Shown: in pieces, positions 4,356 to 42,769 of the stretch
Numbering within the stretch: position 1 is the stretch's first letter
Layout of the letters: the number at the start of each line of letters is the position of its first letter
Source: an uncultured bacterium
Lineage (GTDB): Bacteria; DYJV01
Length of the DNA: 45,828 bases
Assembly (NCBI GenBank): GCA_964543655.1
Contig: CAZIZE010000087.1
Location: 1-45,828, forward strand
Reading direction: 5' to 3'
Notes under the pieces: model-generated
Databases searched by the model: none
Seen by the model: only the letters and a program-made list of their open reading frames with translations
Told to the model about the DNA's origin: nothing
Made by a program: the position numbers and the translations under genes

Positions 4356-4377
4356 AAATTATTTGGAGGGAAATAAA

Positions 4378-5604: not shown

Positions 5605-5605
5605 C

Positions 5606-7371: not shown

Positions 7372-8737
7372 TACTTAACTCCTTAAGAGTTTTGGTAAAG
7401 CTCTCAGCTTTTACTATTGTCTCAATGTACTCTTCTTCCGGGTTTGAATCAGCAACAATTCCACCACCTACCTGAAAAAAAACCTTCTCATCCTTTACAA
7501 TAGCTGTCCTTATAGCAATATTCAAATCAATGTCTCCATCAAGTCCAATATATCCAATGGAACCTGTGTAAACAGAGCGATAAGTTGGCTCAAGCTCATC
7601 AATTATTTCCATTGAGCGAATTTTTGGTGCACCAGTAATTGAACCTCCAGGGTAAGAATTTTTTATACAATCAATTATATGAAATTTTGAACCTATTTCA
7701 GCTGCAACAGTTGATACCATATGATGAACATTTGCATAAGTTTCAACTATCTCAAACTCTGTAACCTTTACACTGTTAAATTTTGCTATTCTCCCAAGGT
7801 CATTACGCTCAAGGTCAACTATCATCAAATGCTCAGCTTTATCTTTTTCACTTGAAAGTAGCTCCTTTTTTAAAATATTATCTTCCTCTAAATCTCTACC
7901 TCTCTTTCTTGTTCCTTTAATTGGTCTTGTCTCAATGTATCTATTTTTAATCAACAAATATCTCTCAGGTGAATTTGACAAAATCTGAAAATCACCATAA
8001 TCTAAAAAAGCACCAAAAGGTGCAGGACTAAGTTTCCTAAAAATTTTATAAAATGAGTATGTATCACCAGAAAAATCTGTGTGAAACCTCTGAGATAAAT
8101 TTACCTGATAAATATCACCTGAAAAAATATACTCTTTGGCAATTTTTATAATATTTTCATAATCCTTTTTCTTAAAATTGGATTGAAGAGTTTTTCCAAT
8201 CTGAAATTTTGGGGTAATAGCCTCATATTTTTTTAGAGCATCTTCAAAAAATTTTGCTTTTTTTTCACTATTCTCACCAAAATTGTACCCTGCTACAAAA
8301 AATTTTTTTTCTACAAAATCGTAAATATAGATAACATCATAAAGTGCAAAATATATTTCAGGAAGATTATAATCATCCACTCTTGAGTCAGGAAGTTTTT
8401 CAATATATTTACCAAGCTCGTAACTTAAATATCCAACAAATCCTCCCTGAAAAGGAAATTTTTTACCTTTTCTTTTCACTCTAAACCTATCAATTATCCT
8501 TTTAAAAAATTTAAAAGGAGCTTCATTAATATATCTTTCTATACCATTTTCCATAAAAACTATTCTGTTGTTTTTAAACTTGAAGGTAATCAATGGCTCA
8601 AACCCAAAGTATGAGTACCTTCCAAGGTGTTTAAAATAAGCACCGCTATCAAGATAAAATGGTAAATTTTTCCCTCTTAAAATCTCAATAATATCTTCAA
8701 CAGGTATATTTTCAACTTCTTTGCAAAAATAACTCAT
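7364..8737 (-). CDS. pabB: Aminodeoxychorismate synthase component I
   Basis: GDIYQVNLSQRF, TRPIKGT, KDKAEHLMIVDLERNDLG, PGGSITGAPK, GGGIVADS. Confidence 0.9.
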   Translation of the reverse strand: MSYFCKEVENIPVEDIIEILRGKNLPFYLDSGAYFKHLGRYSYFGFEPLITFKFKNNRIVFMENGIERYINEAPFKFFKRIIDRFRVKRKGKKFPFQGGFVGYLSYELGKYIEKLPDSRVDDYNLPEIYFALYDVIYIYDFVEKKFFVAGYNFGENSEKKAKFFEDALKKYEAITPKFQIGKTLQSNFKKKDYENIIKIAKEYIFSGDIYQVNLSQRFHTDFSGDTYSFYKIFRKLSPAPFGAFLDYGDFQILSNSPERYLLIKNRYIETRPIKGTRKRGRDLEEDNILKKELLSSEKDKAEHLMIVDLERNDLGRIAKFNSVKVTEFEIVETYANVHHMVSTVAAEIGSKFHIIDCIKNSYPGGSITGAPKIRSMEIIDELEPTYRSVYTGSIGYIGLDGDIDLNIAIRTAIVKDEKVFFQVGGGIVADSNPEEEYIETIVKAESFTKTLKELSNG

Positions 8738-9600
8738 TAATCATTACTCCTTGGATGTTTCTTAAAATATTCCTCTTTAATTTTTTTAAGAGAAACATGT
8801 GTATATATCTGCGTTGTAGAAATATCACTATGTCCTAAAAGCTTCTGCACACTTCTTAAATTTGCACCTCCCTCAATGAGATGCGTTGCAAAAGAGTGCC
8901 TTAAAAGATGCGGATAAACATTTTTGTCAAGCCCCGAAATAGTAGCATATTTTTTAACAATTTTCCATAAAAATTGTCTTGTTAATTGGCCACCATTCCT
9001 TGTTAAAAAAAGTATATTTGAATTTTTTTTATTAAAAATAGCTCTTACATTTTTTATATATCTCTCTATAAAATCAATAGCCTCATAATGAAGCGGTATA
9101 ATCCTCTCTTTTGAGCGTTTACCTAAAACTTTTATTGTGCCGCTGTTTCTATCAAAATCAGTTACTTTAAGGTTAAGAAGCTCTGAAACCCTTATACCAG
9201 TAGCATAGAGGAGTTCCAATATTGCTCTGTTTCGTAGTCCCGTAAGACTGCTAATATCTATTGCTTCTAACAATTGAACAATATCTGAGAAATTTAAAAA
9301 ATTAGGTAACAATGTTTTTTTCTTTGGAATTTGAACTGCTTCAAACTCATCATTATTTAAAAATTTAAAAAACATTTTCAGAGAAGATAATTTTCTGAGC
9401 ATTGAGGATATTTCATAATTATTATCATGGAGAAAAATCAAGTATTCATCAACATCAAATTTGGATAGATTCTCAATATCACCATTAATTACCTCTAAAA
9501 ATTGCTTTATATCCCTGCAATAATCCTCTGCTGTTTTATAAGAAAGTCCTTTATCAATAGTTAAAAAAAATTTGAATTTTTCAATAACTTTGTTATTCAT
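8737..9600 (-). CDS. xerD: Site-specific tyrosine recombinase XerD
   Basis: ELLYATGIRVSEL, GKRSKER, PHLLRHSFATHL, LLGHSDISTTQIYTHV; 287 aa; housekeeping context. Confidence 0.85.
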   Translation of the reverse strand: MNNKVIEKFKFFLTIDKGLSYKTAEDYCRDIKQFLEVINGDIENLSKFDVDEYLIFLHDNNYEISSMLRKLSSLKMFFKFLNNDEFEAVQIPKKKTLLPNFLNFSDIVQLLEAIDISSLTGLRNRAILELLYATGIRVSELLNLKVTDFDRNSGTIKVLGKRSKERIIPLHYEAIDFIERYIKNVRAIFNKKNSNILFLTRNGGQLTRQFLWKIVKKYATISGLDKNVYPHLLRHSFATHLIEGGANLRSVQKLLGHSDISTTQIYTHVSLKKIKEEYFKKHPRSND

Positions 9601-9602
9601 TT

Positions 9603-11822
9603 CTATCCTGTTGAAACAAATTTCCCTCTGTTAATAAAAAAATTTTTAAATCTATTTTTCAAACATGGAAAATTGTCAAGATTTAAATCAAAATTAATAA
9701 TTTCTTCTGCGTCATTTTTAGCATTAACAAGGATTTTATAATCCCTTATTATATCTGCAAATTGAAACTCCGCAACACCAGATTGCTTAACTCCAGAAAG
9801 CTCTCCACCACCTCTAATTTTCAAATCTGCTTCAGCTATTTCAAATCCATCATTGGTTTTTACCATAATGTTTAACCGCTCTGCTGCTTCCTTTGATAAT
9901 CTATTAGAGGAGATTAAGTAACAGAAAGATTGAAACTTGCCCCTTCCTATTCTACCTCTAAGTTGATGGAGCTGAGAAAGCCCAAATCTTTCACTATGCT
10001 CAATAACCATAACAGTTGCATTTGGCACATCTATTCCTACTTCTACAACAGTTGTTGAAACCAAAATATCAATCTCTCCTTTGGAAAATTTTTTCATAAC
10101 ACTATCTTTCTCCTGAGGTTTCATTTTACCATGCAGAATACCCAATTTATAGTTATTAAAATATTTATGTTTTAAAATTTCACTCATTTTTACTACACTT
10201 TTTAAATCAAGTTTATCTGAGTCCTCTACAAGAGGATAAATAAAATATACTTGCCTACCCTTTTCAAGCTCCTCTTTTATTTTCTCCATAAATATATCTC
10301 TTTGAGATTCTTTAAACCAAAAAGTTTTTATTGGCTTCCTACCAGAGGGTAGCTGATCAATAATGGATACATCAAGGTCACCATAAAGGGTCAAAGTTAA
10401 TGTTCTCGGTATTGGAGTGGCAGTCATAATAAGTGTATGGGTAAGATTACCTTTCTCTTTTAAAAACATCCTCTGTTTAACTCCAAACTTATGTTGTTCA
10501 TCAACTATATTTAATTTTAAATTTTTAAATTTAACATCTTCCTGAATTAACGCATGGGTGCCAACTATAAAATTTATTTCACCACTTTCTATCCCCTCCT
10601 TTATTGTAATTTTCTCTTTTTTACTGGTACTTCCAACTAAAAGCTCTACTTTTACTGGAAGATTAAAATTTTTTATATTGTTGTAATGCTGCTCTGCAAG
10701 AATCTCAGTAGGTGCCATAAACGCCACTTGCCCTCCATTTTCTATTATTAAAAGTGCAGAAATAATAGCAACTACTGTTTTACCACTTCCCACATCACCT
10801 TGAATTAATCTATTTAAAACTTTCCCCTGCTTTAAGTCATTAAATATCTCTCTGAGCACTTTTCTCTGTGCATCTGTGAGCTTAAAGTTTAAATTATCAA
10901 TAAAAGGTTTAATAATAGTACCTTTATAAGTAATGGGCTCTGTTTTTAATTTATCCTTTTTTGCTTTCTCTTTCGCAACTGCAAGCATTGTAAAAAAGAG
11001 CTCATCATAGATTAATCTTTTTTTTAAAGACTCCACCTTTTCAAGATTATCTTTATCTGGAAAGTGTAGATATTGGAAACATTTTAAAATTTCCAAAAAA
11101 TCTCTTTTTATTAAAATATGAGCTGGCAAATATTCATAGGTGAAAAATTTTAATTTTTTAAAAACATTTTTCATAATCTCAACTACAATATTATTTGAAA
11201 TATTGGAGATATTAGGATAAACAGGCTCTATAGATTTTAATAAATTTTTCTCCTCTTTAATCAATGGATGGATAATTTCACGCTGAAAATTAAAGATAGA
11301 TATTTTACCATAAACAATAAATTCTTTTTCAGAGATAAAAAATTTTTTCAAATGTGTTAAATTAAAATTAAACCACTTCAATAATATTGAAGATGTATCA
11401 TCATAAAACTCAGCTTCAAGAACCTTTCTTTTACCAAAATTCACCACTCTATATTTTCTAAATTTAAGTTTCAACACTGCAACTTCATTAATTATAGTCT
11501 GAGAAACTTTCAATATTTTAGAGTAATCTCTGTATGTTGAAGGGATGAATTTAAGTAGATCCTCAATTACATTTATTCCTCTACGTTTAAAAATTTCAGC
11601 TCTTCTGGGACCCACACCTTTTAAAAACTGAATATCCTGCATTAAAAATTTCACACAAGCCTGAAATTCTGTAAAATTTTCTTTTTGAATATAAGAAGAT
11701 ATTCGAAGAATTAACTCATTAATATTACCTTTTGATTCATTGGAAAATTTTTTAAAAATATTATTATCTGCAACTGAGGAAAGGTCATTCTGATTAATTA
11801 TCTTTTTTAATAGATTCTTCAT
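9603..11822 (-). CDS. recG: ATP-dependent DNA helicase RecG
   Basis: QGDVGSGKT, MAPTEILAEQH, DEQHKFG, MTATPIPRTL, QLHQLRGRIGRG, DGFEIAEADL. Confidence 0.97.
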   Translation of the reverse strand: MKNLLKKIINQNDLSSVADNNIFKKFSNESKGNINELILRISSYIQKENFTEFQACVKFLMQDIQFLKGVGPRRAEIFKRRGINVIEDLLKFIPSTYRDYSKILKVSQTIINEVAVLKLKFRKYRVVNFGKRKVLEAEFYDDTSSILLKWFNFNLTHLKKFFISEKEFIVYGKISIFNFQREIIHPLIKEEKNLLKSIEPVYPNISNISNNIVVEIMKNVFKKLKFFTYEYLPAHILIKRDFLEILKCFQYLHFPDKDNLEKVESLKKRLIYDELFFTMLAVAKEKAKKDKLKTEPITYKGTIIKPFIDNLNFKLTDAQRKVLREIFNDLKQGKVLNRLIQGDVGSGKTVVAIISALLIIENGGQVAFMAPTEILAEQHYNNIKNFNLPVKVELLVGSTSKKEKITIKEGIESGEINFIVGTHALIQEDVKFKNLKLNIVDEQHKFGVKQRMFLKEKGNLTHTLIMTATPIPRTLTLTLYGDLDVSIIDQLPSGRKPIKTFWFKESQRDIFMEKIKEELEKGRQVYFIYPLVEDSDKLDLKSVVKMSEILKHKYFNNYKLGILHGKMKPQEKDSVMKKFSKGEIDILVSTTVVEVGIDVPNATVMVIEHSERFGLSQLHQLRGRIGRGKFQSFCYLISSNRLSKEAAERLNIMVKTNDGFEIAEADLKIRGGGELSGVKQSGVAEFQFADIIRDYKILVNAKNDAEEIINFDLNLDNFPCLKNRFKNFFINRGKFVSTG

Positions 11823-12174
11823 GTTGAATTTTTAAAAATGAATTTACCAATCTATCCCTTTCAAGTTCATCAATTAAAATATAGTTAATAGCAAAACCTT
11901 CTTCAAGTAATCTAACTACTTTTGATACAAGATAAATGTCATCTTTGAAAATTGGGATAGTAAATTTAACAAGTAAAAAATCATCTTTTTTAATTTTATC
12001 CTTTAAAATATCTGTATAATAAACAAACATTCCATTTGCACTAATATCTTTTGTCTGAAGTAGTGTCCAGGTTTTATCAAGATAAAACTTATCACTTTCT
12101 TTATTATAGTAAATTTTTTTCAAATAGATTTTAAGCTTTAGCTCAAGTCTAAAAAAATGTCTACTCTGCGGCAT
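11794..12174 (-). CDS. PilZ-domain (c-di-GMP-binding) protein
   Basis: RHFFR (RxxxR) and DISANG (DxSxxG) motifs; next to stator genes. Confidence 0.85.
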   Translation of the reverse strand: MPQSRHFFRLELKLKIYLKKIYYNKESDKFYLDKTWTLLQTKDISANGMFVYYTDILKDKIKKDDFLLVKFTIPIFKDDIYLVSKVVRLLEEGFAINYILIDELERDRLVNSFLKIQHEESIKKDN

Positions 12175-35209: not shown

Positions 35210-37084
35210 TTAACCTTTAGCTACAAAGAAGCAGACTATAAAAATTAGAAGGATATAAATTATATACCAGTATATCTTTCCATTCATCAAAACACGTGCA
35301 ACAAAATATCCTACATTAATTGCTACTTTTTTGCAAAAATTATATGGAAAAATAAAAATATCAGTAACTTCAATTATGAATCTGTTACCTTTAACAATTT
35401 CCTTTGTCCTGTAAATTTTTTGTAAAATATGCTCCAAAATATAGGAATAAGCTGGTGCTGTGAAATACTCATTTTCCTGCAAAGGTAAAGCACCATTAAA
35501 TGAGTTAACCTTTCTCACTCTCCTTCTTGTAGAGTAGTAAATTGCAAAAGGAAATAGAAACAGCACACCTATAACTATAAAAAGAAAAGTTGGAGCAATT
35601 ACACCAAAAATAGGATTACCTGACATTATTAAAAATGGCTTTGGTACACCAAGCAACCCACCAAGCATATAAGAATATCCAAACATTTTAAAGAGCAGTG
35701 GTGCAAAAACCCCAGAAAAAATAACTAAAAAAATCAACAATAATTCAGAGAATTTAATGAGCTTATCAGGGAACCTTTTTGTTTTTATATTATGGTCAAA
35801 CCCAAGAGCTGTATAACCAATCAGCTTACTCATTGCAAAACCAGTTAACCCAATACCAATGGCAATTAATATTCCTACAAATGTTCCAAAAAATCTGTAG
35901 AAATTATTGGATAATTTAAAAGATTGGAAAATAGATTCTAATAGCATCCATTCTCCAACATAACCTATTAGAGGTGGAAAAGCACTTAAAGATAATCCTG
36001 AAACAAGAATCCCAGCAGCTGGAATTTTACCAACACCTTTCCACACTCCTCTAACCTCATCAATAACATGGGCCTGATAAGCTTCTTTTGCATGGCCAAC
36101 AGAAATAAACAATAATGATTTTGCAAGTAAATGGCCAAAAGCTATTATTAACCCTGTTGCAAATGCAAAATTTGAAAGATATGAGTTTTTCACAAGAAAT
36201 GAAAACGCTATTGCACTTAAAATCAATCCATTATTCTCAACTGTAGAATAAGCTGGAAGAGTTTTTAAACCACCAGTGGCAACTGCGTTTAATGCACCCC
36301 AGAATGCTGATAAACCACCTAATGCAAGTAACACAACATAATATTCATTAATTCCAATATCACATAATTTGACAATTCTCACCATACCATAAACACCCAT
36401 TAAGGTAACTGGACCACTTAAAATAGCGCAAACATTTGTAGGTGCTTTATCATATACATTTCTCATCCATGTATGAAATGGTATTATATCCATTTTTATA
36501 ATAAAACCCATTGTTGTAAAAATAAGAAAAAGCAAACCACCACTTTTAATAAAATTAAAATCTACTGACCTATTTGACAAAAATAGAGTGGCAAACCCAA
36601 TAATAATCAATACAGTTGAAAGCTCTCCATAAGCAAGAAAAGCAAAAGCTGATTTGAAGCGAACTTCTCTTTCTGCAATAATCATAAGAAAAATAAATAT
36701 AGTCATCAATTCCCAGCCAAATAGAAAGGTAATTCCATCAAAGGCAGTAAGTACAAGCACCATTCCTAAATATGTCAGATTAATTAATGCACCTGAGCTT
36801 TTACCATGATGAATCCCATATTCTATAGAAAATATTGAAATGGCAAACCAGCTTATTGATGAAAAAATCAAAAAAATAGCTGTTAAATGGTCAACTTTTG
36901 TTATTAAGTGAAAATTTGAAAATATTGGGATATTAAAAATATTGTATGGAGAGCTTAACCCTAATACTCCACCAATAAATAGAAAAAAAGATGCTATAAC
37001 TCCAATAACGTATCCTCTCTTTTTTTTAAATGAAATCAAAGCTCCAATTAAAAATAAAAACATAGCAATTATTGTAAAAGCCAC
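35210..37084 (-). CDS. HyfB/NuoL/MrpD-like antiporter-type membrane subunit of an Ehr-like complex
   Basis: FLFGWELMT, IKMDIIPFHTW, AYSTVENNG, HLLAKSLLF, PPLIGYVGEW; many TMs; GTG start with AGGAG. Confidence 0.88.
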   Translation of the reverse strand: MAFTIIAMFLFLIGALISFKKKRGYVIGVIASFFLFIGGVLGLSSPYNIFNIPIFSNFHLITKVDHLTAIFLIFSSISWFAISIFSIEYGIHHGKSSGALINLTYLGMVLVLTAFDGITFLFGWELMTIFIFLMIIAEREVRFKSAFAFLAYGELSTVLIIIGFATLFLSNRSVDFNFIKSGGLLFLIFTTMGFIIKMDIIPFHTWMRNVYDKAPTNVCAILSGPVTLMGVYGMVRIVKLCDIGINEYYVVLLALGGLSAFWGALNAVATGGLKTLPAYSTVENNGLILSAIAFSFLVKNSYLSNFAFATGLIIAFGHLLAKSLLFISVGHAKEAYQAHVIDEVRGVWKGVGKIPAAGILVSGLSLSAFPPLIGYVGEWMLLESIFQSFKLSNNFYRFFGTFVGILIAIGIGLTGFAMSKLIGYTALGFDHNIKTKRFPDKLIKFSELLLIFLVIFSGVFAPLLFKMFGYSYMLGGLLGVPKPFLIMSGNPIFGVIAPTFLFIVIGVLFLFPFAIYYSTRRRVRKVNSFNGALPLQENEYFTAPAYSYILEHILQKIYRTKEIVKGNRFIIEVTDIFIFPYNFCKKVAINVGYFVARVLMNGKIYWYIIYILLIFIVCFFVAKG

Positions 37085-37106
37085 TTTATAAACTCCTTTT
37101 ACTCTT

Positions 37107-37565
37107 TTATCTAATAATATTCAACAATACAGAGAGTAACTCATTAGGTGAAATATTCTTATTAATAACTGCAATCACATTTGGAATATCCAGACTATTT
37201 ATAGAATTCTCTATATAATTCTCCTCATTGATAACCAATACTCCAAAATCTTCAGGCATTTGATTAATTGTCTCCATAAGAGGCTCTTTCATTTTTACAT
37301 TTAGTGGGCCAAGAACAATCAGCAGGTCAGCATGCTTTGGAGTCTCTGTAAAAAAAATCCCAAATCTGTGGATATTATATTGTGGTGCTTTTAATGCTTT
37401 TATAGTAAAATTTAACAGATTAGAATTACCAACATCAATTACAAATAGATGTAATGACTTCTTAAATACTTTATTTTTTAAAACAGGGTTTATTCTGAAA
37501 CAATCATCCCTTTTCTCTTTTTCTGTAAAATAGTTAGTAATGCCTATTAAAGGCCACCATTTCAT
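37107..37565 (-). CDS. Degenerate HyfI/HycG/NuoB-like small subunit lacking Fe-S cysteines
   Basis: FKKSLHLFVIDVG, YNIHRFGIFFTETPKHADLLIVLGP..KM match the family, but the CxxC, G-x-C and GCPP positions are substituted; strong GGAGG SD. Confidence 0.85.
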   Translation of the reverse strand: MKWWPLIGITNYFTEKEKRDDCFRINPVLKNKVFKKSLHLFVIDVGNSNLLNFTIKALKAPQYNIHRFGIFFTETPKHADLLIVLGPLNVKMKEPLMETINQMPEDFGVLVINEENYIENSINSLDIPNVIAVINKNISPNELLSVLLNIIR

Positions 37566-37583
37566 AAAAACCTCCTGAATTAA

Positions 37584-38819
37584 TTATCTTGCAGCATCAG
37601 CAAAATTAACTCCAAAAGATTCAACAGTAAAAACAAAATCAGTAAAAATCTGGTTAACAAGTGAGTCAGCTATAGCTTTAAAACCAAATAAAGATGGTGT
37701 AACAATATAAGAAAAATCAATTTTTCCATTAATTATTGATAAAAAATAGCATAATGTACCTGATGGTGATTCAACAGCTCCATAACCTTTGCCATTTTCA
37801 ATATTAAATTGAGGTATATCTTTTTCCACTTTTAAATTTAAAATTTTTTCTAAACACTCTTTTATTAAATTAATAGATATAAATATCTCTTCTGCCCTAA
37901 CTTCCATTCTTGAAAGTGAATCCCCCTCCTCTTTTACTGGAATATCAATTGAGTTGTAATAATTGTCAAATTCCCTTAAATCCTCCCTAACTCCTGATGC
38001 TCTCAATGATGGACCTGTTAAACCTATTTCAATAGCCATATTAGTTGAAACAATTCCAGTGTTGTGTAATCTGTCAAGATAATTACCACTTTCAAGGCTT
38101 TTCTTGTAAAGCAAAGAAAATCTTTTCTCAATTTCATTTAATTTAATTAAAATCTTCTCTATTTTGGTTTTCTCAAATGAATTTTTAACTCCCCCAATTC
38201 TGTTAAAAGATAACAGATGCCTTGACCCTGAGAAAAGTTCATTAATTCTTAAACATTCTTCAAATAAATATTGCAAATGCGAAGTCAAAACCTTTTGAGC
38301 TGCTCCTTTTGCAAGCTCTGTTATTACATAAATATGATTGTAAAGCCTTTCAAGCTCAAGAGCTACAACTCTTAAAAGCCTGTGTGACTCTGAAATCTTA
38401 ATATTAAAAATATTCTCAACAGCTTTACAAAAAGCAAGTGAATGTGAAAATGCAAAGTTACCACATACAGATTCAGCCATATTCAAAGCTTCTGATAAAT
38501 TTTTATTAATCATTTTATTTTCAATATTTCTTCTTTTAAATGTTACATCTATTTCTACTGATAATATTCTCTCACCAGATGTATGGATATTATATATTCC
38601 TGCTTCTGCTACCCCACCAGTAACAGGGCCATATCTAAAATTAAACACAGTTTCTCCATTAATCTTACTATTCCCAATAATTAAATTACGATTCTTTATT
38701 AATGTGTAATTTTTAGGCTTTACATAATTTTTAGCATTTAAAATAGAGACAGTGCCATTTTCTTGGAAAATAAACAGCTCTTCATTTTTATAATTTATAA
38801 TTCCCAGTAACTTTTTCAA
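37584..38819 (-). CDS. HyfG/EhrL/NuoD-like large subunit without NiFe motifs
   Basis: YGPVTGGVAEAG, GERIL, ALELERLYNH, GLTGPSLRASG, VESPSG, FTDF..ESFG; no CxxC pairs; TTG start. Confidence 0.88.
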   Translation of the reverse strand: MKKLLGIINYKNEELFIFQENGTVSILNAKNYVKPKNYTLIKNRNLIIGNSKINGETVFNFRYGPVTGGVAEAGIYNIHTSGERILSVEIDVTFKRRNIENKMINKNLSEALNMAESVCGNFAFSHSLAFCKAVENIFNIKISESHRLLRVVALELERLYNHIYVITELAKGAAQKVLTSHLQYLFEECLRINELFSGSRHLLSFNRIGGVKNSFEKTKIEKILIKLNEIEKRFSLLYKKSLESGNYLDRLHNTGIVSTNMAIEIGLTGPSLRASGVREDLREFDNYYNSIDIPVKEEGDSLSRMEVRAEEIFISINLIKECLEKILNLKVEKDIPQFNIENGKGYGAVESPSGTLCYFLSIINGKIDFSYIVTPSLFGFKAIADSLVNQIFTDFVFTVESFGVNFADAAR

Positions 38820-38831
38820 AGCTCTTTCCTT

Positions 38832-40175
38832 CTATATATTTATTAAAAATATAATAAAAAATGACATTAAAATATTAATTAAAGGAACGTAATTCACAAG
38901 AGATTTCCTCTCTTTTACATCTTTCTCTTTTTCTGAAAATATCATTCTACCAGTGTAATAATTTGCAGAGATAAATGCTATAGAAATAAAGACTCCAAGA
39001 ATTAGAGCAATAATCCATCCATATATTGAAATAATTTTTGAAAAAATTAAAATCTCACCAATAAAAGTGGCAAATGGTGGAGCACCTGTAGCAGCAAGAA
39101 TTGCAAAAAATAAACAAAATCCTGTAAAAGGCATCTTTTTTATAAGACCTTTTATACCACTTATTGTGGCATCTTTAAATCTAATTAAAATATTTCCTGA
39201 TAAATAGAATACTGCTGATTTTGCAAAAGCATGACATATAATTACAATTAATGCACCAGTTAGAGCTTTGCCACCAAGGGCAAAACCAATAAGTGCTATT
39301 CCCATATTTTCCATTGATGAATATGCAAAAAGCCTTTTATAAAATTTCTGAACTGTCATAAGTAACGCTGCAACAGCAACTGATAAAAAACCAAGAATAA
39401 ACATAAACATTCTGATTTCATGGGAAAAACAGATATTGCTAACTCTCAAAATACCAAATAATGCAACTGGTAATAGGACACCAGAAAATATTGCACTAAC
39501 AGGAGATGGTGCCTTTCCATGTACATCAGGAAGCCATGTGTGCATTGGAAATATTCCAGCTTTTGTGCCATAACCAACAATTGAAAGTAAAATCCCTAAA
39601 ATTACTATTTTACCAGAAGCATGAGAGTTAAGAGCTACTGAAATATCAAGTGAATGCACTTCTCCATATATTAAAATTGTTCCAAGCAAAGACATTATAA
39701 GCCCGCATGAAACAATCAAAATATAACGCCATGTTGCCTCAATTGATTCTTTTTTGCCTTCTATTGCAATAAGTAGAGCACTTGTAACAGTTGTAGCTTC
39801 TATTCCTACCCATAAAAGTCCTAAGTTGTTAGTTTCAACAGAAAAAAACATTGATAAAGCAAAAAAATTCATCCATGCAAAGTAGTGATTTGTATGGAAC
39901 AGTGGATTGTCTATATATTTCACATAACTGATAGAATATATTACTGTAGCAGTATAAATTGCTGCTATAACAAAAATCATAACTTTTGATATGTAATCAA
40001 TATAAAAAGAAGAGTTAACAAAATTTTCTCCTCTGAAAATAATTATTGAGCAAACCAGCACACTAATTGATGAAATAGCTGAAATAAACTCAGCAACACC
40101 TTTCTGTTTGAGTAATGAAATTAATCCAGCAATAGCACTTAATATTATTGGCAGATAATAGATATAGTTCTGCAT
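38832..40175 (-). CDS. HyfF-like antiporter-type membrane subunit
   Basis: WVGIEATT, EATWRY, GYGTKAGIFPMHTWLPDVHGKAPSPVSA, KRLFAYSS, HAFAKS. Confidence 0.9.
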   Translation of the reverse strand: MQNYIYYLPIILSAIAGLISLLKQKGVAEFISAISSISVLVCSIIIFRGENFVNSSFYIDYISKVMIFVIAAIYTATVIYSISYVKYIDNPLFHTNHYFAWMNFFALSMFFSVETNNLGLLWVGIEATTVTSALLIAIEGKKESIEATWRYILIVSCGLIMSLLGTILIYGEVHSLDISVALNSHASGKIVILGILLSIVGYGTKAGIFPMHTWLPDVHGKAPSPVSAIFSGVLLPVALFGILRVSNICFSHEIRMFMFILGFLSVAVAALLMTVQKFYKRLFAYSSMENMGIALIGFALGGKALTGALIVIICHAFAKSAVFYLSGNILIRFKDATISGIKGLIKKMPFTGFCLFFAILAATGAPPFATFIGEILIFSKIISIYGWIIALILGVFISIAFISANYYTGRMIFSEKEKDVKERKSLVNYVPLINILMSFFIIFLINI

Positions 40176-40178
40176 ATT

Positions 40179-40823
40179 TTATCCTTTTAATTCTTCAATT
40201 TCTTCAAGAGTATCAGGGACATAGTTCTCTCTGAGTTTATTAATAATCCCACTTATCATTACAATACCTAATAGATCGAGGATTATTCCTGCTTCAAATA
40301 TAAAAGGCAAATTAGGAAATAGAGATGCACCAAATAACAGCACTCCATTTTCCATAATCATATAGCCTATTAACTGAACAAAAGTATTCCTCTTGGATAT
40401 TATTAAGAAAAGCCCCTGCAAAATCATTGCAAGAGGGAGAGCACCTGCTCTCACTTTGAGGTAATTGTATAAGGTAAAAGTATACACTATGTAACAAAGA
40501 ATAACTATCAAAATTGAACAAATTATCCCAGATGCAGTACCCATTGTAGGAGCTGATTCTCTAACTCTCCAATGCTCTTTTGTAAGCTTAACAATCATAA
40601 ATCTTGGTATAAAAATCGTTCTTACAATTATTGTAAGTATTGCTATAAAAATAAGAGAGCTTTCTCCTTTGGCGCTTCCAAGAAAAAAAAGATATATTGC
40701 AAGTATAAAAGAGCTTATTGCAAAAGTAATAATGTTCTTTTTAATGTAAACCTGCCACTGTATGAATACCACCAATAAAATTTGAAAAGATGTGAAAAGT
40801 AGAAAAAGTTTTTCAAAATCCAT
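40179..40823 (-). CDS. HyfE-like membrane subunit
   Basis: Multi-TM, IFIPR, QLIGYMIMENG, LP.IFEAGIILD, C-terminal ELKG. Confidence 0.88.
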   Translation of the reverse strand: MDFEKLFLLFTSFQILLVVFIQWQVYIKKNIITFAISSFILAIYLFFLGSAKGESSLIFIAILTIIVRTIFIPRFMIVKLTKEHWRVRESAPTMGTASGIICSILIVILCYIVYTFTLYNYLKVRAGALPLAMILQGLFLIISKRNTFVQLIGYMIMENGVLLFGASLFPNLPFIFEAGIILDLLGIVMISGIINKLRENYVPDTLEEIEELKG

Positions 40824-40876
40824 GAATTCTCCTCTTATAAAACTTTATGATTCAAGGTCTATAAGTAAAAATTTTA

Positions 40877-41830
40877 TTAAAAGATTCCTTTTGTAGTATA
40901 AATAGCTATAACTCCAAGAAGAGTTAAAACAAACGCAACAGCCATATAATCAAAAATTTTGTATAATCTATATTTTGAAATTGACTCCTCTAACAGTGCA
41001 ATGATTGTAACGAGCACTACCATTTTAATAAAGTGAATAACAGAGTAAATTATAACATATCCAAATGAAGCTCCCTCCATTGGCACCCAAAATGGCAATG
41101 AAAAAACATTGAGAAAAACGCTCATTAAAAGAAAATGTTTAATATAACTGCCCCATTTGTAAATTGCCAGGTCAGGCCCTGAGTATTCCAACTCCATAGC
41201 CTGATCTATCATTCCAAACTCAGCTTGAGTTTTAGATTCTATAGGCAATTTCCCTGTTTCAATAATTATAATCATACCAAAAGCTGATGCTATAAATAGG
41301 TGAACAATAGATGTAAACCATGTATGAGAAGTTTGAAAAATATTATTAATTACATAAGGGTTATTTGTATTTGAAATTATTCCACATAAAATGAATATTA
41401 ATACAACCATAGGGTCAGCAAGTGAACCAACACTTGCTGCTCTTGCAGTTCCAAGGTGAGAATAATTATTGCGACTGTCAAGTGCTGTAATTTTCTTAAT
41501 TAATCCAGCTGCTCCAAAAATTAATCCACCACCAATAAAATCAGCTGTAGGGCCAAATGTTAAGGGAAATCCTGTAATAATTGGTAGAATTATAATAAGG
41601 AGCATATAAAATGCAAAATTAATATATGGCCCCAACCTGAAAAGTGGAGAAGCAACCTGAGGTACAAGGCTCTCCTTTTTTAAAAGCTTAAAAATATCGT
41701 AATATGGCTGAAAAATTGAAGGTCCCTGTTTTGATTCAAGACGCTCTTTTAATTTAGCAAGAATACCAACTAAGAGAGGTGCCAATAAAATCACATAGAT
41801 AAGCTGTAAAATTGAATAAATTAGAAGCAA
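40877..41830 (-). CDS. HyfC/HycD/NuoH-like membrane subunit
   Basis: LAPLLVG..K.RL..GPSIFQPYYDIFKLLKKE, ETGKLP, MELEYSGPDLA; TTG start with AAGGAG. Confidence 0.92.
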   Translation of the reverse strand: MLLIYSILQLIYVILLAPLLVGILAKLKERLESKQGPSIFQPYYDIFKLLKKESLVPQVASPLFRLGPYINFAFYMLLIIILPIITGFPLTFGPTADFIGGGLIFGAAGLIKKITALDSRNNYSHLGTARAASVGSLADPMVVLIFILCGIISNTNNPYVINNIFQTSHTWFTSIVHLFIASAFGMIIIIETGKLPIESKTQAEFGMIDQAMELEYSGPDLAIYKWGSYIKHFLLMSVFLNVFSLPFWVPMEGASFGYVIIYSVIHFIKMVVLVTIIALLEESISKYRLYKIFDYMAVAFVLTLLGVIAIYTTKGIF

Positions 41831-41831
41831 A

Positions 41832-41878
41832 ACAATACTCCTTGTTTAAGTAATAAGAACTTAAACAGGAGTTATTGT
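41832..41878 (-). promoter_or_regulatory. Riboswitch expression platform: SD-sequestering (possibly terminator) hairpin
   Basis: ACAATAACTCCTGTTTAAG (41878-41860) pairs with CTTAAACAAGGAGTATTGT (41850-41832), which contains the SD AAGGAG (41843-41838); followed by the TTG start. Confidence 0.8.
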
Positions 41879-41917
41879 CTCGCTATGCGAGAGGTTAAAG
41901 GTGAACTCCACCACCTG
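41864..41917 (-). ncRNA. Fluoride (crcB-class) riboswitch aptamer, variant
   Basis: Minus strand AGGTG-GT-GGAGTT-CACCT-TTAACC-TCTCGC-ATA-GCGAGA-CAAT-AACTCC-TG: P1 AGGTG/CACCT, P2 TCTCGC/GCGAGA, pseudoknot GGAGTT/AACTCC; lies in the 5' UTR downstream of TTGACA (41957-41952). Confidence 0.8.
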
Positions 41918-41953
41918 AAATTGAATCCTGATTAGCATAAGAAAAATTTATTG

Positions 41954-42769
41954 TCAAGAATTTAAATTTTTATAAACATGAATATCCATTTGTGGGTAAG
42001 GTATTCCAATACCTTTTTCATCAAAAGTTAATTTAATTTTTTCTAATAAGTCAAAATACACATCCCAGTAATCAGATGATTTTACCCAGGGTCTAACAGC
42101 AAAATTCACACTACTATCTGCAAGCTCTGATACAGCGACAATAGGTGCAGGTTCTTTTAATATTCTACTGTCAGAGGATAAAATTTCATAAAGGGTTTCT
42201 TTTGCTAATTTTATATTATCATTGTAGCCTATTCCTATTGTTAAGTCTATTCTTCTTGTATCTTTTGCAGAGTAGTTTATAATGTTATTTCCAAGAATAT
42301 TTGAATTAGGTACAATAATAGCCTTGTTGTCTGGTGTTTTTAACTCAGTATTAAATAATGTAATTTTTTCCACTACTCCACTAACACCTCCAACGTCAAC
42401 AAAATCACCTATTTTAAAAGGTCTAAAAAGCATTAAAACAACACCTGCCCCAATATTTGACAGATTATTCTGAAGTGCCAACCCAATAGCCAATGTTGCT
42501 GCACCAACAATAGCAACAAATGAAGTCATTTTTATTCCAAGAGTGCTTAATGATGCAAGTACAACAAGAACCATTAAGCCAATATATGTAAGGTCACCAA
42601 GGAAGGTTGCAAGAGTTGCTTCAACTTTAGCTTTTTTCATTATATTTCTTAAAAATTTTGTAATTAAATTGGCAAAAAATTTACCAACAATGAAAATAAC
42701 AACAGCACCAAGAATTTTAATCCCATATTGAATTGCATAATTTGTTATGGTTGTTGTAATATTTTCCAT
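41954..42769 (-). CDS. mscS: Small-conductance mechanosensitive channel
   Basis: GAATLAIGLALQ..SN..AG, RPFKIGD, TPDNKAIIVPNS, RRIDL, IPYPQMD. Confidence 0.95.
   Translation of the reverse strand: MENITTTITNYAIQYGIKILGAVVIFIVGKFFANLITKFLRNIMKKAKVEATLATFLGDLTYIGLMVLVVLASLSTLGIKMTSFVAIVGAATLAIGLALQNNLSNIGAGVVLMLFRPFKIGDFVDVGGVSGVVEKITLFNTELKTPDNKAIIVPNSNILGNNIINYSAKDTRRIDLTIGIGYNDNIKLAKETLYEILSSDSRILKEPAPIVAVSELADSSVNFAVRPWVKSSDYWDVYFDLLEKIKLTFDEKGIGIPYPQMDIHVYKNLNS

What the first reader, a model, noticed from the sequence alone, without database searches (positions are those of the whole stretch)
35210..41957. Fluoride-riboswitch-controlled, apparently cofactor-less Hyf/Ehr-like complex: candidate new ion-transport or fluoride-response system
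Seen: a six-gene operon (HyfC, HyfE, HyfF, HyfG-like, HyfI-like, HyfB) behind a crcB-class riboswitch. The large subunit has no NiFe CxxC pairs, the small subunit has no Fe-S ligands, and no HyfH/NuoI ferredoxin gene is present. Both antiporter-like subunits keep their charged residues (WVGIE/GTK/HAFAK; GWE/IIK/HLLAK). Known: Ehr complexes lack the NiFe site but normally keep an Fe-S small subunit, and fluoride riboswitches have been reported upstream of genes annotated as formate hydrogenlyase without a functional explanation. Inference: this complex cannot do electron transfer by itself and may act as an Mrp-like secondary transporter (F- export, or cation/H+ exchange offsetting HF-driven acidification) with a vestigial soluble cap.
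Basis: partly seen in the sequence, partly recalled or inferred. Interest (0 to 1): 0.92.

Follow-up and report, generated by a model that had tools for sequence, protein, structure and literature searches.

The report
Fluoride-switched, cofactor-free hydrogenase-like membrane complex
A six-gene relative of membrane hydrogenases and respiratory complex I has lost the amino acids that hold its metal centres but keeps its ion-pumping parts, and it sits behind a fluoride-sensing RNA switch in many heat-loving bacteria, so it is probably a new kind of fluoride-defence ion transporter, not a hydrogen-making enzyme.

Summary
Window 35210-41830 (- strand) holds six genes: NuoH/HyfC-like, HyfE-like, HyfF-like, NuoD/HyfG-like, NuoB/HyfI-like and HyfB-like. 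They lie behind an RF01734 fluoride riboswitch at 41859-41924 (36.5 bits, cut-off 34).

- **Cofactor ligands:** the large subunit keeps 1 of 4 NiFe cysteines. The small subunit keeps none of the 4 Fe-S cysteines. No NuoI or NuoC gene is present.
- **Conserved module:** I found the operon in 34 genomes of three unrelated lineages. The riboswitch lies directly before the first gene in 33 of them.
- **Selection:** all six genes are under purifying selection (dN/dS 0.02-0.23). The proton-path Glu/Lys/His residues of both antiporter-like subunits are invariant.
- **Known exporters:** only 3 of the 34 carriers have CrcB, and none of the 5 checked has a CLC-F signature. In several genomes this operon's riboswitch is the only one.
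- **Sister class:** "type I" has the same gene order and riboswitch and also lacks NiFe ligands, but it keeps the Fe-S cysteines.

These are the genes that the fluoride literature calls "formate hydrogenlyase". They are Ehr-type complexes and cannot be hydrogenases. My best reading is a fluoride-induced, redox-inert ion translocator. The ion it moves is not settled: it could be cation/H+ exchange or F- export.

The parts
41929..41957 (-). Promoter-like site: TTGACA (41957-41952), a 17-nt spacer, then a TG-extended TAATCA (41934-41929). The -35 hexamer overlaps the TGA stop of the upstream MscS gene.
   Evidence: Read directly from the sequence. TTGACA and TATGCTAA are conserved in the four genomes of the window's own order (alignment). 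The consensus scan did not call it, because its rule needs T at position 6 of the -10 hexamer. Inferred, not shown.
41859..41924 (-). Fluoride riboswitch aptamer (RF01734, crcB motif)
   Evidence: 36.5 bits against a gathering score of 34, E = 1.3e-6, model positions 1-64 of 64. The core GG.G.TGGAG..C.CC ... A..CTCCT is invariant across 7 orthologous leaders, and P1 changes on both sides (GGTG/CACC to GGCG/CGCC).
41826..41884 (-). Expression platform. A hairpin pairs the aptamer's 3' strand (..ACUCCU..) with the Shine-Dalgarno AAGGAG (41843-41838) and the UUG start codon (41830-41828). A U-rich tail follows.
   Evidence: The 111-nt leader (41820-41930), which contains this hairpin, folds at -36.8 kcal/mol with z = -5.3; 0 of 200 shuffles fold as well. 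Anti-SD/SD pairing is also visible in the G001, G004, G005 and G293 leaders (by eye). Reading it as an ON switch is inference from the known class.
40877..41830 (-). NuoH/HyfC/HycD-like membrane subunit (317 aa, TTG start)
   Evidence: PF00146, 3.4e-28. Closest solved chain is E. coli HycD 7z0s_D, 8.7e-36. It is the most conserved subunit: 55-60% identity across lineages and 125 of 317 columns invariant, including the Asn-rich motifs ALDSRNNY and TNNPYVxNNI.
40179..40823 (-). HyfE-like (NuoK-type) membrane subunit (214 aa)
   Evidence: NF008556, 6.9e-17, and a weak PF00420 hit. The membrane Glu residues in 'IGYxxxEN' and 'xxxEAGIxLD' are invariant in 7 of 7.
38832..40175 (-). HyfF-like antiporter-like subunit (447 aa)
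   Evidence: PF00361, 8e-52, and NF005042, 397 bits. Aligned to MbhH 6cfw_H at 5.9e-26. The TM5 Glu, TM7 Lys, TM8 His/Lys and TM12 Glu are invariant in 7 of 7.
37584..38819 (-). NuoD/HyfG-like 'large subunit' without a NiFe site and without a NuoC domain (411 aa)
   Evidence: PF00346, 6.5e-33. Closest solved chain is MbhL 6cfw_L, 1.5e-29. Only C119 of the four NiFe cysteines is kept. dN/dS 0.09-0.20.
37107..37565 (-). NuoB/HyfI-like 'small subunit' with none of the four Fe-S cysteines (152 aa)
   Evidence: No Pfam hit; weak partial NuoB hits in NCBIfam. 80 related clusters at 40-100% identity, none carrying PF01058. The Cys positions are replaced by 'IDVGNSNxLNFE' or deleted. The AF2 model has pLDDT 80, and its best Foldseek hits are MbhJ 6cfw_J and HycG 7z0s_G, TM about 0.6. 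dN/dS 0.02-0.23.
35210..37084 (-). HyfB-like (NuoL-type) antiporter-like subunit (624 aa, GTG start)
   Evidence: PF00361, 2.5e-32, and NF005046, 357 bits. The TM5 Glu, TM7 Lys and TM8 His/Lys are invariant; the TM12 residue is Glu, or Asp in G293.

Best explanation
This is a fluoride-induced, redox-inert member of the Ehr (energy-converting-hydrogenase-related) complexes.

Regulation. When cytoplasmic fluoride binds the leader RNA, the aptamer holds the ACUCCU strand. That strand would otherwise pair with the ribosome-binding site and the start codon, so binding allows the six genes to be expressed.

The complex. The products assemble into a small complex-I-like machine. Its membrane arm consists of the NuoH-like, HyfE-like, HyfF-like and HyfB-like subunits, and its proton-transfer chain is intact. 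A two-protein cap (NuoD-like plus NuoB-like) has lost nickel-iron, iron-sulfur and ferredoxin parts but is still under selection.

Proposed work. It cannot make hydrogen or pass electrons. I propose that it works as a secondary ion translocator driven by the membrane potential. My favoured version is cation/H+ exchange. That would trade the pH gradient for other gradients and so limit the weak-acid accumulation of fluoride and the acid load that HF brings in. The cap would serve as a coupling or gating element on the NuoH-like subunit.

Shown here:
- the anatomy;
- the loss of ligand residues;
- conservation and purifying selection;
- the riboswitch linkage;
- the distribution across genomes.

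Inferred:
- induction by fluoride;
- assembly of the complex;
- ion translocation, its direction and which ion moves.
For: (1) Ligand loss is family-wide. 48 aligned small subunits have 16 invariant columns, and none of them is a Cys. The large subunit keeps 1 of 4 NiFe Cys in 7 of 7 orthologues.

(2) The operon is not decaying. dN/dS is 0.00-0.23 for all six genes in the five informative pairs (G000-G001, G293-G401, G401-G402, G166-G414, G319-G405; the NuoB-like value of G000-G001 could not be computed because dS was saturated). Cap subunits are as conserved as membrane subunits.

(3) The ion-path residues of both antiporter-like subunits and the HyfE-like Glu residues are invariant.

(4) The riboswitch and operon form one module.
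- The small-subunit family scores 147 bits or more in 31 genomes: 7 of 401 in a broad sample, 2 more of the 4 in one order, and 24 of 37 in one phylum, two of which were already in the broad sample.
- RF01734 lies 4.19-4.29 kb upstream on the same strand in 29 of these 31.
- G423 has the junction split over two contigs.
- Three further genomes show riboswitch + NuoH-like/HyfE/HyfF cut by a contig end.
- Total: 33 of 34 carriers.
- G138, a congener of G293, lacks the operon, the riboswitch and CrcB together.

(5) Fluoride context.
- CrcB (PF02537) is found in 3 of 34 carriers, against 188 of 401 in the broad sample.
- All 11 CLC genes of five carriers have the chloride-type G[KR]EGP motif. None has the CLC-F signatures.
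- In G005, G293, G319, G401 and G402 this is the only RF01734 hit in the genome.

(6) Na+/H+ antiporters are the second most common class of genes associated with fluoride riboswitches (PMC11139923, passages read). An ion-exchange response to fluoride therefore has precedent.

(7) The sister type I keeps its Fe-S cysteines behind the same riboswitch, while type II lost them. This argues that the fluoride-related job does not need electron transfer.

(8) The cap is predicted to assemble.
- ipSAE is 0.94, against a best control of 0.19. That mark was reached by 58 of 80 solved complexes and by 2 of 110 mismatched pairs.
- The runs share at least 87% of their contacts, and the partner's pLDDT is at least 80.
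- Like complexes are solved, so this pass shows likeness, not binding.
Against: - No expression, transport or metal data exist. No RNA run holds the locus.
- A plain antiporter would not need a NuoD/NuoB cap or a NuoH-like subunit, and Mrp has neither. Strong selection on the cap therefore hints at a job that this model does not explain.
- The MrpB, E, F and G subunits thought to form the Na+ path are absent.
- Type I keeps Fe-S clusters and a ferredoxin-like domain, so the ancestral fluoride-linked function may have been redox-driven. Type II might dock to a partner encoded elsewhere.
- Lack of CrcB is common: 213 of 401 sampled genomes have none. The 34 carriers fall into only three independent lineages, and in the window's own lineage 3 of 4 carriers do have CrcB.
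- CLC-F was checked by motif in only five genomes.
- Two of the riboswitch hits in the own order (G001, G004) and three elsewhere score 30.9-33.5 bits, just under the Rfam cut-off.
Confidence: 0.5

Rival explanations
1. The complex is itself a fluoride exporter of a new kind. The membrane arm lets protons flow in, and the energy drives F- out from the former substrate chamber at the NuoH-like/NuoD-like/NuoB-like junction. It would replace Fluc and CLC-F in lineages that lack both.
For: - 31 of 34 carriers have no CrcB.
- None of the 11 CLC genes in five carriers has a CLC-F signature.
- In five genomes this is the only fluoride-riboswitch target. Elsewhere the only other target is a dynamin-like GTPase, which is not a transporter.
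- In the G166/G319 phylum the single genome with CrcB (G421, 95% complete) has no hit for the operon.
- The lost cofactor sites are replaced by conserved Asn/Ser/Phe-rich motifs: 'GNSNxLNFE', 'CGNFAFSHS', and in the NuoH-like subunit 'TNNPYVxNNI' and 'ALDSRNNY'. That Asn, Ser and Phe line the fluoride sites of Fluc and CLC-F is recalled, apart from the 'GNNLI' signature quoted.
- The ex-NiFe and ex-Fe-S motifs touch each other in the predicted interface.
Against: - No member of the complex I, Mrp or hydrogenase superfamily is known to move an anion (recalled).
- The chamber of complex I opens to the membrane and cytoplasm, not to the outside (recalled).
- G000, G001 and G004 carry both CrcB and the operon.
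- The motif argument is by eye and was not tested.
- Lack of CrcB is common in the background.
Confidence: 0.2
2. It is still a redox enzyme. It would use a partner encoded elsewhere (a ferredoxin, a formate dehydrogenase or another oxidoreductase) or a cofactor bound by non-cysteine ligands, and would pump ions as other group-4 relatives do.
For: - Type I relatives behind the same riboswitch keep four Fe-S cysteines plus a CxxCxxC ferredoxin-like extension.
- One NiFe-site Cys (C119) is conserved in 14 of 15 family members.
- FDH-Ehr partnerships have been proposed for other Ehr complexes (PMC6349859 and PMC7894505, passages read).
Against: - All four ligands of the cluster that would have to relay electrons are gone, and two of the ligand regions are deleted.
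- No conserved Cys or His pattern replaces them.
- No NuoI or NuoC gene is present. No redox gene is conserved next to the operon in the 7 loci read: the neighbours differ in every lineage.
Confidence: 0.1
3. It is a membrane-stress or regulatory device, not a transporter. It might, for example, work with the co-regulated dynamin-like GTPase in membrane maintenance under fluoride or acid stress, or act as a sensor.
For: A homologous dynamin-like GTPase of about 580 aa is the other fluoride-riboswitch target in the window's own lineage and in the G166/G319 phylum. It was seen in 8 genomes full-length and in 2 truncated, and again in G415 and G418.
Against: - The full set of proton-path residues in two antiporter-like subunits is invariant, which is hard to explain without ion movement.
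- The two units are not adjacent.
- G293's lineage has the operon but no second riboswitch.
Confidence: 0.08
4. It is a decaying remnant of a formate hydrogenlyase or Hyf operon with no function.
For: Loss of every cofactor ligand. All NCBIfam Hyf and Nuo scores are below their cut-offs.
Against: - Intact frames in all carriers read.
- dN/dS far below 1 for all six genes.
- 30-125 invariant columns per protein across three lineages.
- A conserved riboswitch.
Confidence: 0.02

Closest known systems
Ehr (energy-converting hydrogenase-related) complexes, such as Geobacter sulfurreducens Ehr (GSU0739-45) and those of Nitrospira and Margulisbacteria
   Same: A group-4-hydrogenase-like cluster whose large subunit lacks the NiFe CxxC motifs. 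It has NuoL-like, HyfE-like and NuoH-like membrane subunits and only a large and a small soluble subunit. Its function is described as unknown (PMC7894505, PMC6349859, PMC10284858; passages read).
   Different: Here the small subunit has also lost all four Fe-S cysteines, and the operon always stands behind a fluoride riboswitch. No paper that I could search links Ehr to fluoride. Whether the Geobacter EhrS keeps its cysteines I could not check.
'Type I' fluoride-riboswitch Ehr operons found here (G184, G195, G242, G263, G299)
   Same: RF01734 lies 4.8-6.3 kb upstream of the small-subunit gene on the same strand in 5 of 5. The gene order is the same (NuoH-like, HyfE-like, HyfF-like, large, small, HyfB-like). 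The large subunit has no NiFe Cys. The NuoH-like subunit is 33% identical to the window's.
   Different: In type I the small subunit carries 8-13 Cys and an N-terminal CxxCxxC ferredoxin-like extension (5 of 5). The Cys-containing cluster motifs were read in G184, G195, G242 and G263 but not matched in G299. The large subunit of G184 is fused to a NuoC domain (Pfam). The large subunits of G242 and G263 are of like length and that of G299 is 475 aa; that of G195 is 395 aa. The window's type II has lost all of these.
E. coli formate hydrogenlyase (Hyc; structure 7Z0S) and hydrogenase-4/FHL-2 (Hyf)
   Same: The best NCBIfam names are HyfB, HyfE and HyfF. HycD is the closest solved relative of the NuoH-like subunit (8.7e-36), and HycG is a top structural match of the small subunit. 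This is why such operons are annotated, and cited in the fluoride literature, as formate hydrogenlyase.
   Different: No NiFe site, no Fe-S clusters, and no HycF/HyfH, NuoC domain, HycB or FdhF. All Hyf models score below their cut-offs. It cannot evolve H2.
Pyrococcus furiosus membrane-bound hydrogenase MBH (6CFW)
   Same: The closest solved chains for the large subunit (MbhL, 1.5e-29), the HyfF-like subunit (MbhH, 5.9e-26) and the small-subunit fold (MbhJ). The same logic applies: a cap on a NuoH-like subunit next to antiporter-like subunits.
   Different: MBH has NiFe, three Fe-S clusters, MbhN and MbhK, and an Mrp-type Na+ module (recalled). None of these is present here.
Mrp multisubunit cation/H+ antiporters
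   Same: A redox-free machine built on two antiporter-like subunits and a NuoK-like subunit. MrpD and MrpA chains match the HyfF-like subunit at 1e-15 to 1e-22. The proposed work is the same: ion exchange driven by the membrane potential.
   Different: Mrp has no NuoH, NuoD or NuoB homologues, and it has MrpB, E, F and G, which are absent here.
Fluc (CrcB) channels and CLC-F antiporters
   Same: Regulation by the same riboswitch class. Possibly the same physiological end, which is fluoride tolerance.
   Different: No sequence relation. Those are single small proteins with proven F- transport, whereas this is a six-subunit complex with unproven function.

Membership tests
Fluoride riboswitch (Rfam RF01734, crcB motif) | Covariance-model score at or above the curated gathering score | tested here: met
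   36.5 bits against 34, E = 1.3e-6, full-length match. Orthologous leaders score 30.9-59.9 bits.
Fluoride riboswitch (Rfam RF01734, crcB motif) | Conserved core nucleotides and helices kept through compensatory change | tested here: met
   In the alignment of 7 leaders, 22 columns are invariant, 20 of them in the aptamer core. P1 reads GGTG/CACC in five leaders and GGCG/CGCC in two, and the P3 sequences differ but still pair (read by eye; no formal covariation test was run).
Fluoride riboswitch (Rfam RF01734, crcB motif) | Lies in a 5' leader with an expression platform | tested here: met
   It ends 28 nt before the start codon. A hairpin links the aptamer's 3' strand to the SD and the start codon; the 111-nt leader that contains it folds with z = -5.3.
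Fluoride riboswitch (Rfam RF01734, crcB motif) | Binds fluoride and switches expression | not testable with these tools
   Needs in-line probing or a reporter assay.
Group 4 [NiFe]-hydrogenase / formate hydrogenlyase (Hyc, Hyf) | Two CxxC pairs in the large subunit that bind NiFe | tested here: not met
   Only C119 remains. The C-terminus reads SFGVNFADAAR.
Group 4 [NiFe]-hydrogenase / formate hydrogenlyase (Hyc, Hyf) | Four Cys in the small subunit that bind the proximal 4Fe-4S cluster | tested here: not met
   All four positions are substituted or deleted in the window protein and in the aligned family members. A few members carry a stray Cys at a single position.
Group 4 [NiFe]-hydrogenase / formate hydrogenlyase (Hyc, Hyf) | Ferredoxin-type subunit (HycF/HyfH/NuoI) and a NuoC-type domain | tested here: not met
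   The operon has six ORFs only. No PF00329 and no ferredoxin domain was detected in them.
Group 4 [NiFe]-hydrogenase / formate hydrogenlyase (Hyc, Hyf) | Partner formate dehydrogenase | tested here: inconclusive
   None lies in the operon or among the eight neighbouring genes that were scanned. The rest of the genome was not searched for FdhF.
Ehr complexes | Group-4-like gene cluster whose large subunit lacks the NiFe ligands | tested here: met
Ehr complexes | NuoH-like plus antiporter-like membrane subunits in the same operon | tested here: met
   PF00146 once and PF00361 twice.
Mrp cation/H+ antiporter | MrpA/MrpD-type subunits with conserved TM5 Glu, TM7 Lys, TM8 Lys/His and a TM12 charge | tested here: met
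   Invariant in 7 of 7 orthologues for both subunits, with Asp for the HyfB-like TM12 Glu in G293.
Mrp cation/H+ antiporter | MrpB, MrpE, MrpF and MrpG subunits | tested here: not met
   The six ORFs are all assigned to other families, and there are no further ORFs in the operon.
Mrp cation/H+ antiporter | Cation/proton exchange activity | not testable with these tools
   Needs vesicle or complementation assays.
Respiratory complex I (Nuo) | NADH module (NuoE, F, G), NuoI, NuoC, NuoA, NuoJ and the N2 cluster | tested here: not met
   Absent from the operon. The N2 ligands are absent. The genome has other PF01058 genes elsewhere.
Fluc (CrcB) / CLC-F fluoride exporters | Homology to PF02537, or a CLC with the GREGT/V, GEVTP and GNNLI/GMGLI signatures | tested here: not met
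   None of the six proteins hits these families. The genome's CrcB lies on another contig, C96.

The most novel reading that the evidence does not exclude
The six-subunit complex is a new class of fluoride exporter. In this reading a complex-I-type machine runs 'in reverse' on the proton-motive force. Its former NiFe/Fe-S chamber has been rebuilt with conserved Asn/Ser/Phe residues into an anion site. It would replace Fluc and CLC-F in thermophilic lineages that sense fluoride but have neither exporter. It would be the first member of the complex I/Mrp/hydrogenase superfamily to move an anion, and it would give the Ehr complexes their first assigned function.
Probability: 0.2. Interest if true: 0.95.

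Novelty: new variant of a known kind. Interest (0 to 1): 0.74.

Why it matters
1. It corrects an annotation that has shaped thinking on fluoride biology. The "formate hydrogenlyase" genes counted among the commonest fluoride-riboswitch targets, and explained as a metabolic shift, lack the hydrogenase active site (types I and II). In type II they lack every redox cofactor ligand. The explanation must therefore be about ions, not about formate.

2. Ehr complexes are widespread and their function is still called unknown. A fluoride switch gives a concrete condition and phenotype to test.

3. A complex-I-like module that occurs naturally without cofactor ligands and is under selection is a rare test object for how the NuoH/NuoD/NuoB junction couples to the antiporter-like subunits without redox chemistry. 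That coupling is a central open question for complex I.

4. Many carriers sense fluoride yet lack both known exporters. Either this complex or an unknown protein must handle fluoride in them.

Tried and rejected
- **Genome-contig scan.** The scan with the single small-subunit protein returned only one relative, 71% identical, which is the same contig as G001.
- **Metagenome-contig scan.** The scan with alignment A2 failed four times because the machine was busy or silent. The wider metagenomic sample was therefore never examined.
- **Baker et al. 2012.** This is the primary source for the fluoride-"FHL" association. It is not held under its PubMed id or under the PMC id I recalled. I rely on the review PMC11139923. 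Its supplement, which may list these very operons, could not be seen.
- **RNA evidence.** No RNA holder is listed for the locus, and read laying was not used.
- **Promoter scan.** The consensus scan called no promoter in 41700-42100. The TTGACA-N17-TAATCA site is my own reading.
- **MscS gene (41954-42769).** I rejected it as part of the system. The upstream gene differs in every lineage: a glycosyltransferase, HAD, GGDEF-EAL, a dehydrogenase or a CLC.
- **Decaying operon.** Rejected.
- **True formate hydrogenlyase.** Rejected.
- **Other Ehr clusters.** I asked whether the NiFe-less cluster of G015 shares the riboswitch. It does not: G015, G181 and G381 have Cys-to-Asp small subunits and no RF01734 hit in their genomes. 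Only G015's large subunit was read.
- **Redundant search.** The "class of G166" and "phylum of G319" searches returned the same 37 genomes, so one search was redundant.
- **Timed-out script.** A MAFFT run timed out and was repeated with faster settings.
- **Too-close pair.** The dN/dS values of the G319-G407 pair rest on too few changes (dS 0.01-0.02) and were ignored.

Full report
**What is in the window**

Six tightly packed ORFs lie on the - strand between 35210 and 41830. By Pfam and NCBIfam they are, in order:
- a NuoH/HyfC-like subunit (317 aa, PF00146, 3.4e-28);
- a HyfE-like subunit (214 aa, NF008556, 6.9e-17);
- a HyfF-like antiporter-like subunit (447 aa, PF00361, 8e-52);
- a NuoD/HyfG-like "large subunit" (411 aa, PF00346, 6.5e-33);
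- a 152-aa protein with no Pfam hit and only partial NuoB matches (2.5e-9);
- a HyfB-like antiporter-like subunit (624 aa, PF00361, 2.5e-32).

Every Hyf and Nuo model of NCBIfam scores below its curated cut-off. The next gene downstream is convergent. The neighbours on both sides are unrelated housekeeping genes. The window has 30% G+C. The only listed holder of nearly all of this DNA is labelled a hydrothermal vent metagenome.

**The riboswitch**

Rfam's fluoride family RF01734 matches 41859-41924 (-) at 36.5 bits (gathering score 34, E = 1.3e-6) over the whole model. Upstream, TTGACA-N17-TAATCA with a TG extension lies at 41957-41929. The -35 hexamer overlaps the stop codon of an MscS gene. 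The consensus scan did not call this site, so it is my own reading.

Downstream, the aptamer's 3' strand can pair with the AAGGAG ribosome-binding site (41843-41838) and the UUG start codon (41830). The 111-nt leader that contains this hairpin folds with z = -5.3, and none of 200 shuffles folds as well. This is the usual design of an ON switch, in which bound fluoride holds the ACUCCU strand in the aptamer.

An alignment of seven orthologous leaders keeps the aptamer core invariant and changes P1 on both sides.

**Loss of the cofactor ligands**

Aligned to P. furiosus MbhL, its closest solved relative (6cfw_L, 1.5e-29), the large subunit reads "SVCGNFAFSHS" where MbhL reads "RMCGICSFSH". It ends "SFGVNFADAAR" instead of a DPCxxC motif. 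One of the four NiFe cysteines remains.

The small subunit's only Cys lies in its variable N-terminus. Against two canonical relatives in the same alignment, the positions "DCTSCNGC..E", "GACACSGG" and "PGCC" are replaced by "IDVGNSNLLNF" or deleted.

An AlphaFold model built on 48 family members (pLDDT 80) matches MbhJ, HycG and complex-I PSST/NuoB chains at TM about 0.6. The fold is kept while the cluster site is gone. There is no NuoI/HyfH gene and no NuoC domain.

**A conserved family, not a wreck**

The small subunit has 80 relatives at E <= 1.7e-27 and 40-100% identity among 5.8 billion clusters. None of them carries PF01058. The sources name species of Hippea, Athalassotoga and Thermodesulfobium and a Bacteroidetes MAG. 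Forty-eight aligned members share 16 invariant columns, and none of these is a Cys.

Between the window and three distant carriers (G166, G293, G319), identities are:

| Subunit | Identity |
|---|---|
| NuoH-like | 55-60% |
| HyfE-like | 44-48% |
| HyfF-like | 47-49% |
| Large subunit | 43-49% |
| Small subunit | 37-50% |
| HyfB-like | 42-44% |

The cap is as conserved as the membrane arm.

Nei-Gojobori dN/dS is far below 1 for all six genes in every informative pair. For G166-G414 it is 0.04-0.09. For G000-G001 it is 0.045-0.12, with the small-subunit dS saturated. For G293-G401 it is 0-0.2, and for G319-G405 it is 0.11-0.23.

The TM5 Glu, TM7 Lys, TM8 His/Lys and TM12 acidic residue of both antiporter-like subunits are invariant in 7 of 7. 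So are the two membrane Glu residues of the HyfE-like subunit. The NuoH-like subunit carries invariant Asn-rich motifs, ALDSRNNY and TNNPYVxNNI, the second of which is partly an insertion relative to HycD.

A complex prediction for the large and small subunits passes. The score is 0.94 against a best control of 0.19, a mark reached by 58 of 80 solved complexes and 2 of 110 mismatched pairs. The runs share at least 87% of their contacts, and the partner's pLDDT is at least 80. Because MBH, FHL and complex I are solved, this shows likeness and does not prove binding. In the model, the ex-NiFe motif (residues 116-121 and 405-408) and the loop 65-73 touch the ex-cluster motif of the small subunit (41-50).

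**Riboswitch and operon travel together**

With the family profile, full-length hits of 147 bits or more occur in:
- 7 of 401 genomes of a broad sample (G000, G001, G004, G005, G166, G293, G319; the next best hit scores 88 bits);
- 3 of the 4 genomes of G293's order;
- 24 of the 37 genomes of the phylum that holds G166 and G319.

These make 31 genomes in three unrelated lineages. The seven loci read in full show the same six-gene order.

An RF01734 match lies 4.19-4.29 kb upstream of the small-subunit gene, on the same contig and strand, in 29 of the 31. In G423 the junction is split between two contigs. Three genomes without a small-subunit hit (G415, G416, G420) have the riboswitch followed by NuoH-like, HyfE-like and HyfF-like genes that are cut off by a contig end. 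Altogether 33 of 34 carriers show the junction. The exception, G427, is 76% complete.

G138, a congener of G293, lacks the operon, the riboswitch and CrcB together.

**Fluoride context of the carriers**

CrcB (PF02537) is found in the window's genome, on another contig and without a riboswitch hit, and in G001 and G004. It is not found in the other 31 carriers. In the G166/G319 phylum it occurs in 1 of 37 genomes (G421), and that genome has no hit for the operon.

The base rate in the broad sample is 188 of 401, and the carriers form only three lineages. This is therefore suggestive, not conclusive.

All 11 CLC genes of G000, G005, G166, G293 and G319 carry the chloride-type G[KR]EGP motif. 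None has the CLC-F signatures quoted in the review.

In G005, G293, G319, G401 and G402 the operon's riboswitch is the only one in the genome. Elsewhere the second riboswitch controls a homologous dynamin-like GTPase of about 580 aa.

**A sister class**

The best-scoring "canonical" small subunits of the broad sample (79-88 bits, in G184, G195, G242, G263 and G299) also have RF01734 4.8-6.3 kb upstream on the same strand, in 5 of 5. Their operons have the same gene order.

Their large subunits also lack the NiFe cysteines; G184, for example, reads "VERFSGTSAFAHSM ... STAESDR". The G184 large subunit is fused to a NuoC domain by Pfam. Those of G242 and G263 are of like length, while G195's is only 395 aa.

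Their small subunits are Cys-rich (8-13 Cys) and all five carry an N-terminal CxxCxxC ferredoxin-like extension. The Cys-containing cluster motifs were read in G184, G195, G242 and G263 but not matched in G299. The G184 NuoH-like subunit is 33% identical to the window's.

So there is a series. It runs from true Hyf/FHL, to type I (no NiFe, Fe-S kept, fluoride switch), to type II (the window: no NiFe, no Fe-S, no NuoC, no ferredoxin domain, fluoride switch).

Among the 142 full-length representatives related to the large subunit, many are Cys-less. The type II clade itself is small, with about 11 representatives of 229 bits or more at 50% clustering. Another NiFe-less cluster, in G015, has Cys-to-Asp at three of four small-subunit positions and no fluoride riboswitch in its genome. 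Small subunits in G181 and G381 show the same changes.

**What is known**

[quoted passage not shown] It explains this as a metabolic shift. It also states that Na+/H+ antiporters are the second most common class. The primary paper is not held, and its supplement could not be seen.

Papers on Ehr describe NiFe-less relatives of group 4 hydrogenases of unknown function, sometimes with a proposed formate dehydrogenase partner (passages read).

Six full-text searches found no paper that links Ehr or cofactor loss to fluoride. This absence holds only for the open-access library that was searched.

**Reading**

The complex cannot be a hydrogenase or a formate hydrogenlyase, and it has no path for electrons. 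It keeps everything that moves protons in complex I, MBH and Mrp, and it is wired to a fluoride sensor.

The most economical model is a fluoride-induced secondary ion translocator. I favour cation/H+ exchange, which lowers the pH gradient and with it the weak-acid accumulation of fluoride (confidence 0.5 for the redox-inert translocator reading as stated).

Three things keep a bolder reading alive, in which the complex itself exports fluoride (0.2):
- the selected cap;
- its rebuilt, polar former active site;
- the many carriers that sense fluoride without any known exporter.

A hidden redox partner (0.1), a non-transport role with the dynamin-like GTPase (0.08) and decay (0.02) are less likely.

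**Verdict**

This is a new variant of a known kind: Ehr complexes, and fluoride-riboswitch "FHL" genes. It has a clear and testable functional handle.

Noticed in passing
G000:C55:35779-35840 (-), locus L001 1501-1562; gene in L068 at about 3010-4750 (-): The genome's second and stronger fluoride riboswitch (56.6 bits) controls a bacterial dynamin-like GTPase of about 580 aa (PF00350), followed by a HemN-like radical SAM gene and an M18 aminopeptidase. Homologous GTPases stand behind RF01734 in G001, G004, G166, G404, G412, G415, G418, G421 and G432, and truncated in G406 and G429. As far as I recall, this fluoride-riboswitch target has not been described.
   Followed up: partly
L075 (G184:C18) 2613-10367; also L082, L083, L084, L085: A sister 'type I' operon. 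It has a fluoride riboswitch and the same six-gene order. The large subunit lacks NiFe ligands; in G184 it is fused to a NuoC domain. The small subunit is Cys-rich with a CxxCxxC ferredoxin-like N-terminus. Seen in 5 of 5 genomes checked.
   Followed up: partly
L075 10844-14831: Directly after the type I operon of G184, a second fluoride riboswitch (41.5 bits) precedes two proteins with only MutS domain V and a HEAT-repeat protein.
   Followed up: no
G299:C1:3458275-3483855: A 'fluoride island': six RF01734 matches (three over the cut-off) within 26 kb, together with a type I operon and a crcB gene at 3475266-3475610.
   Followed up: no
L044 (G015), L046 (G181), L051 (G381); L011 for the G015 large subunit: Small subunits in which three of the four Fe-S cysteines are Asp ('GSDNACE', 'GDDAI', 'PGDPP'). 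In G015 the large subunit on the same contig ends in the Cys-less 'NKSFNLSYSGNDL'. None of the three genomes has a fluoride riboswitch.
   Followed up: partly
window 41954-42769 (-): An MscS mechanosensitive channel gene ends 30 nt before the riboswitch, and its stop codon lies inside the putative -35 hexamer of the operon's promoter. The adjacency is not conserved in other lineages.
   Followed up: yes
L055 (G319) 10284-11423 (+) and 2758-3592 (-): In G319 a short chloride-type CLC gene is divergent from the riboswitch. A small zinc-ribbon/HEAT-like ORF and a HAD-type hydrolase follow the operon on the same strand. In G005 a HAD hydrolase is divergent upstream. HAD genes are known companions of fluoride riboswitches.
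   Followed up: no
L053 (G166) 11799-11918 (+): A molybdenum-cofactor riboswitch (RF01055, 87 bits) lies right after the HyfB-like gene, followed by a solute-binding protein gene.
   Followed up: no
window 40877-41830 (NuoH-like protein): Invariant Asn-rich motifs ALDSRNNY and TNNPYVxNNI in the NuoH-like subunit. The second is partly an insertion relative to E. coli HycD. Their role is unknown.
   Followed up: no
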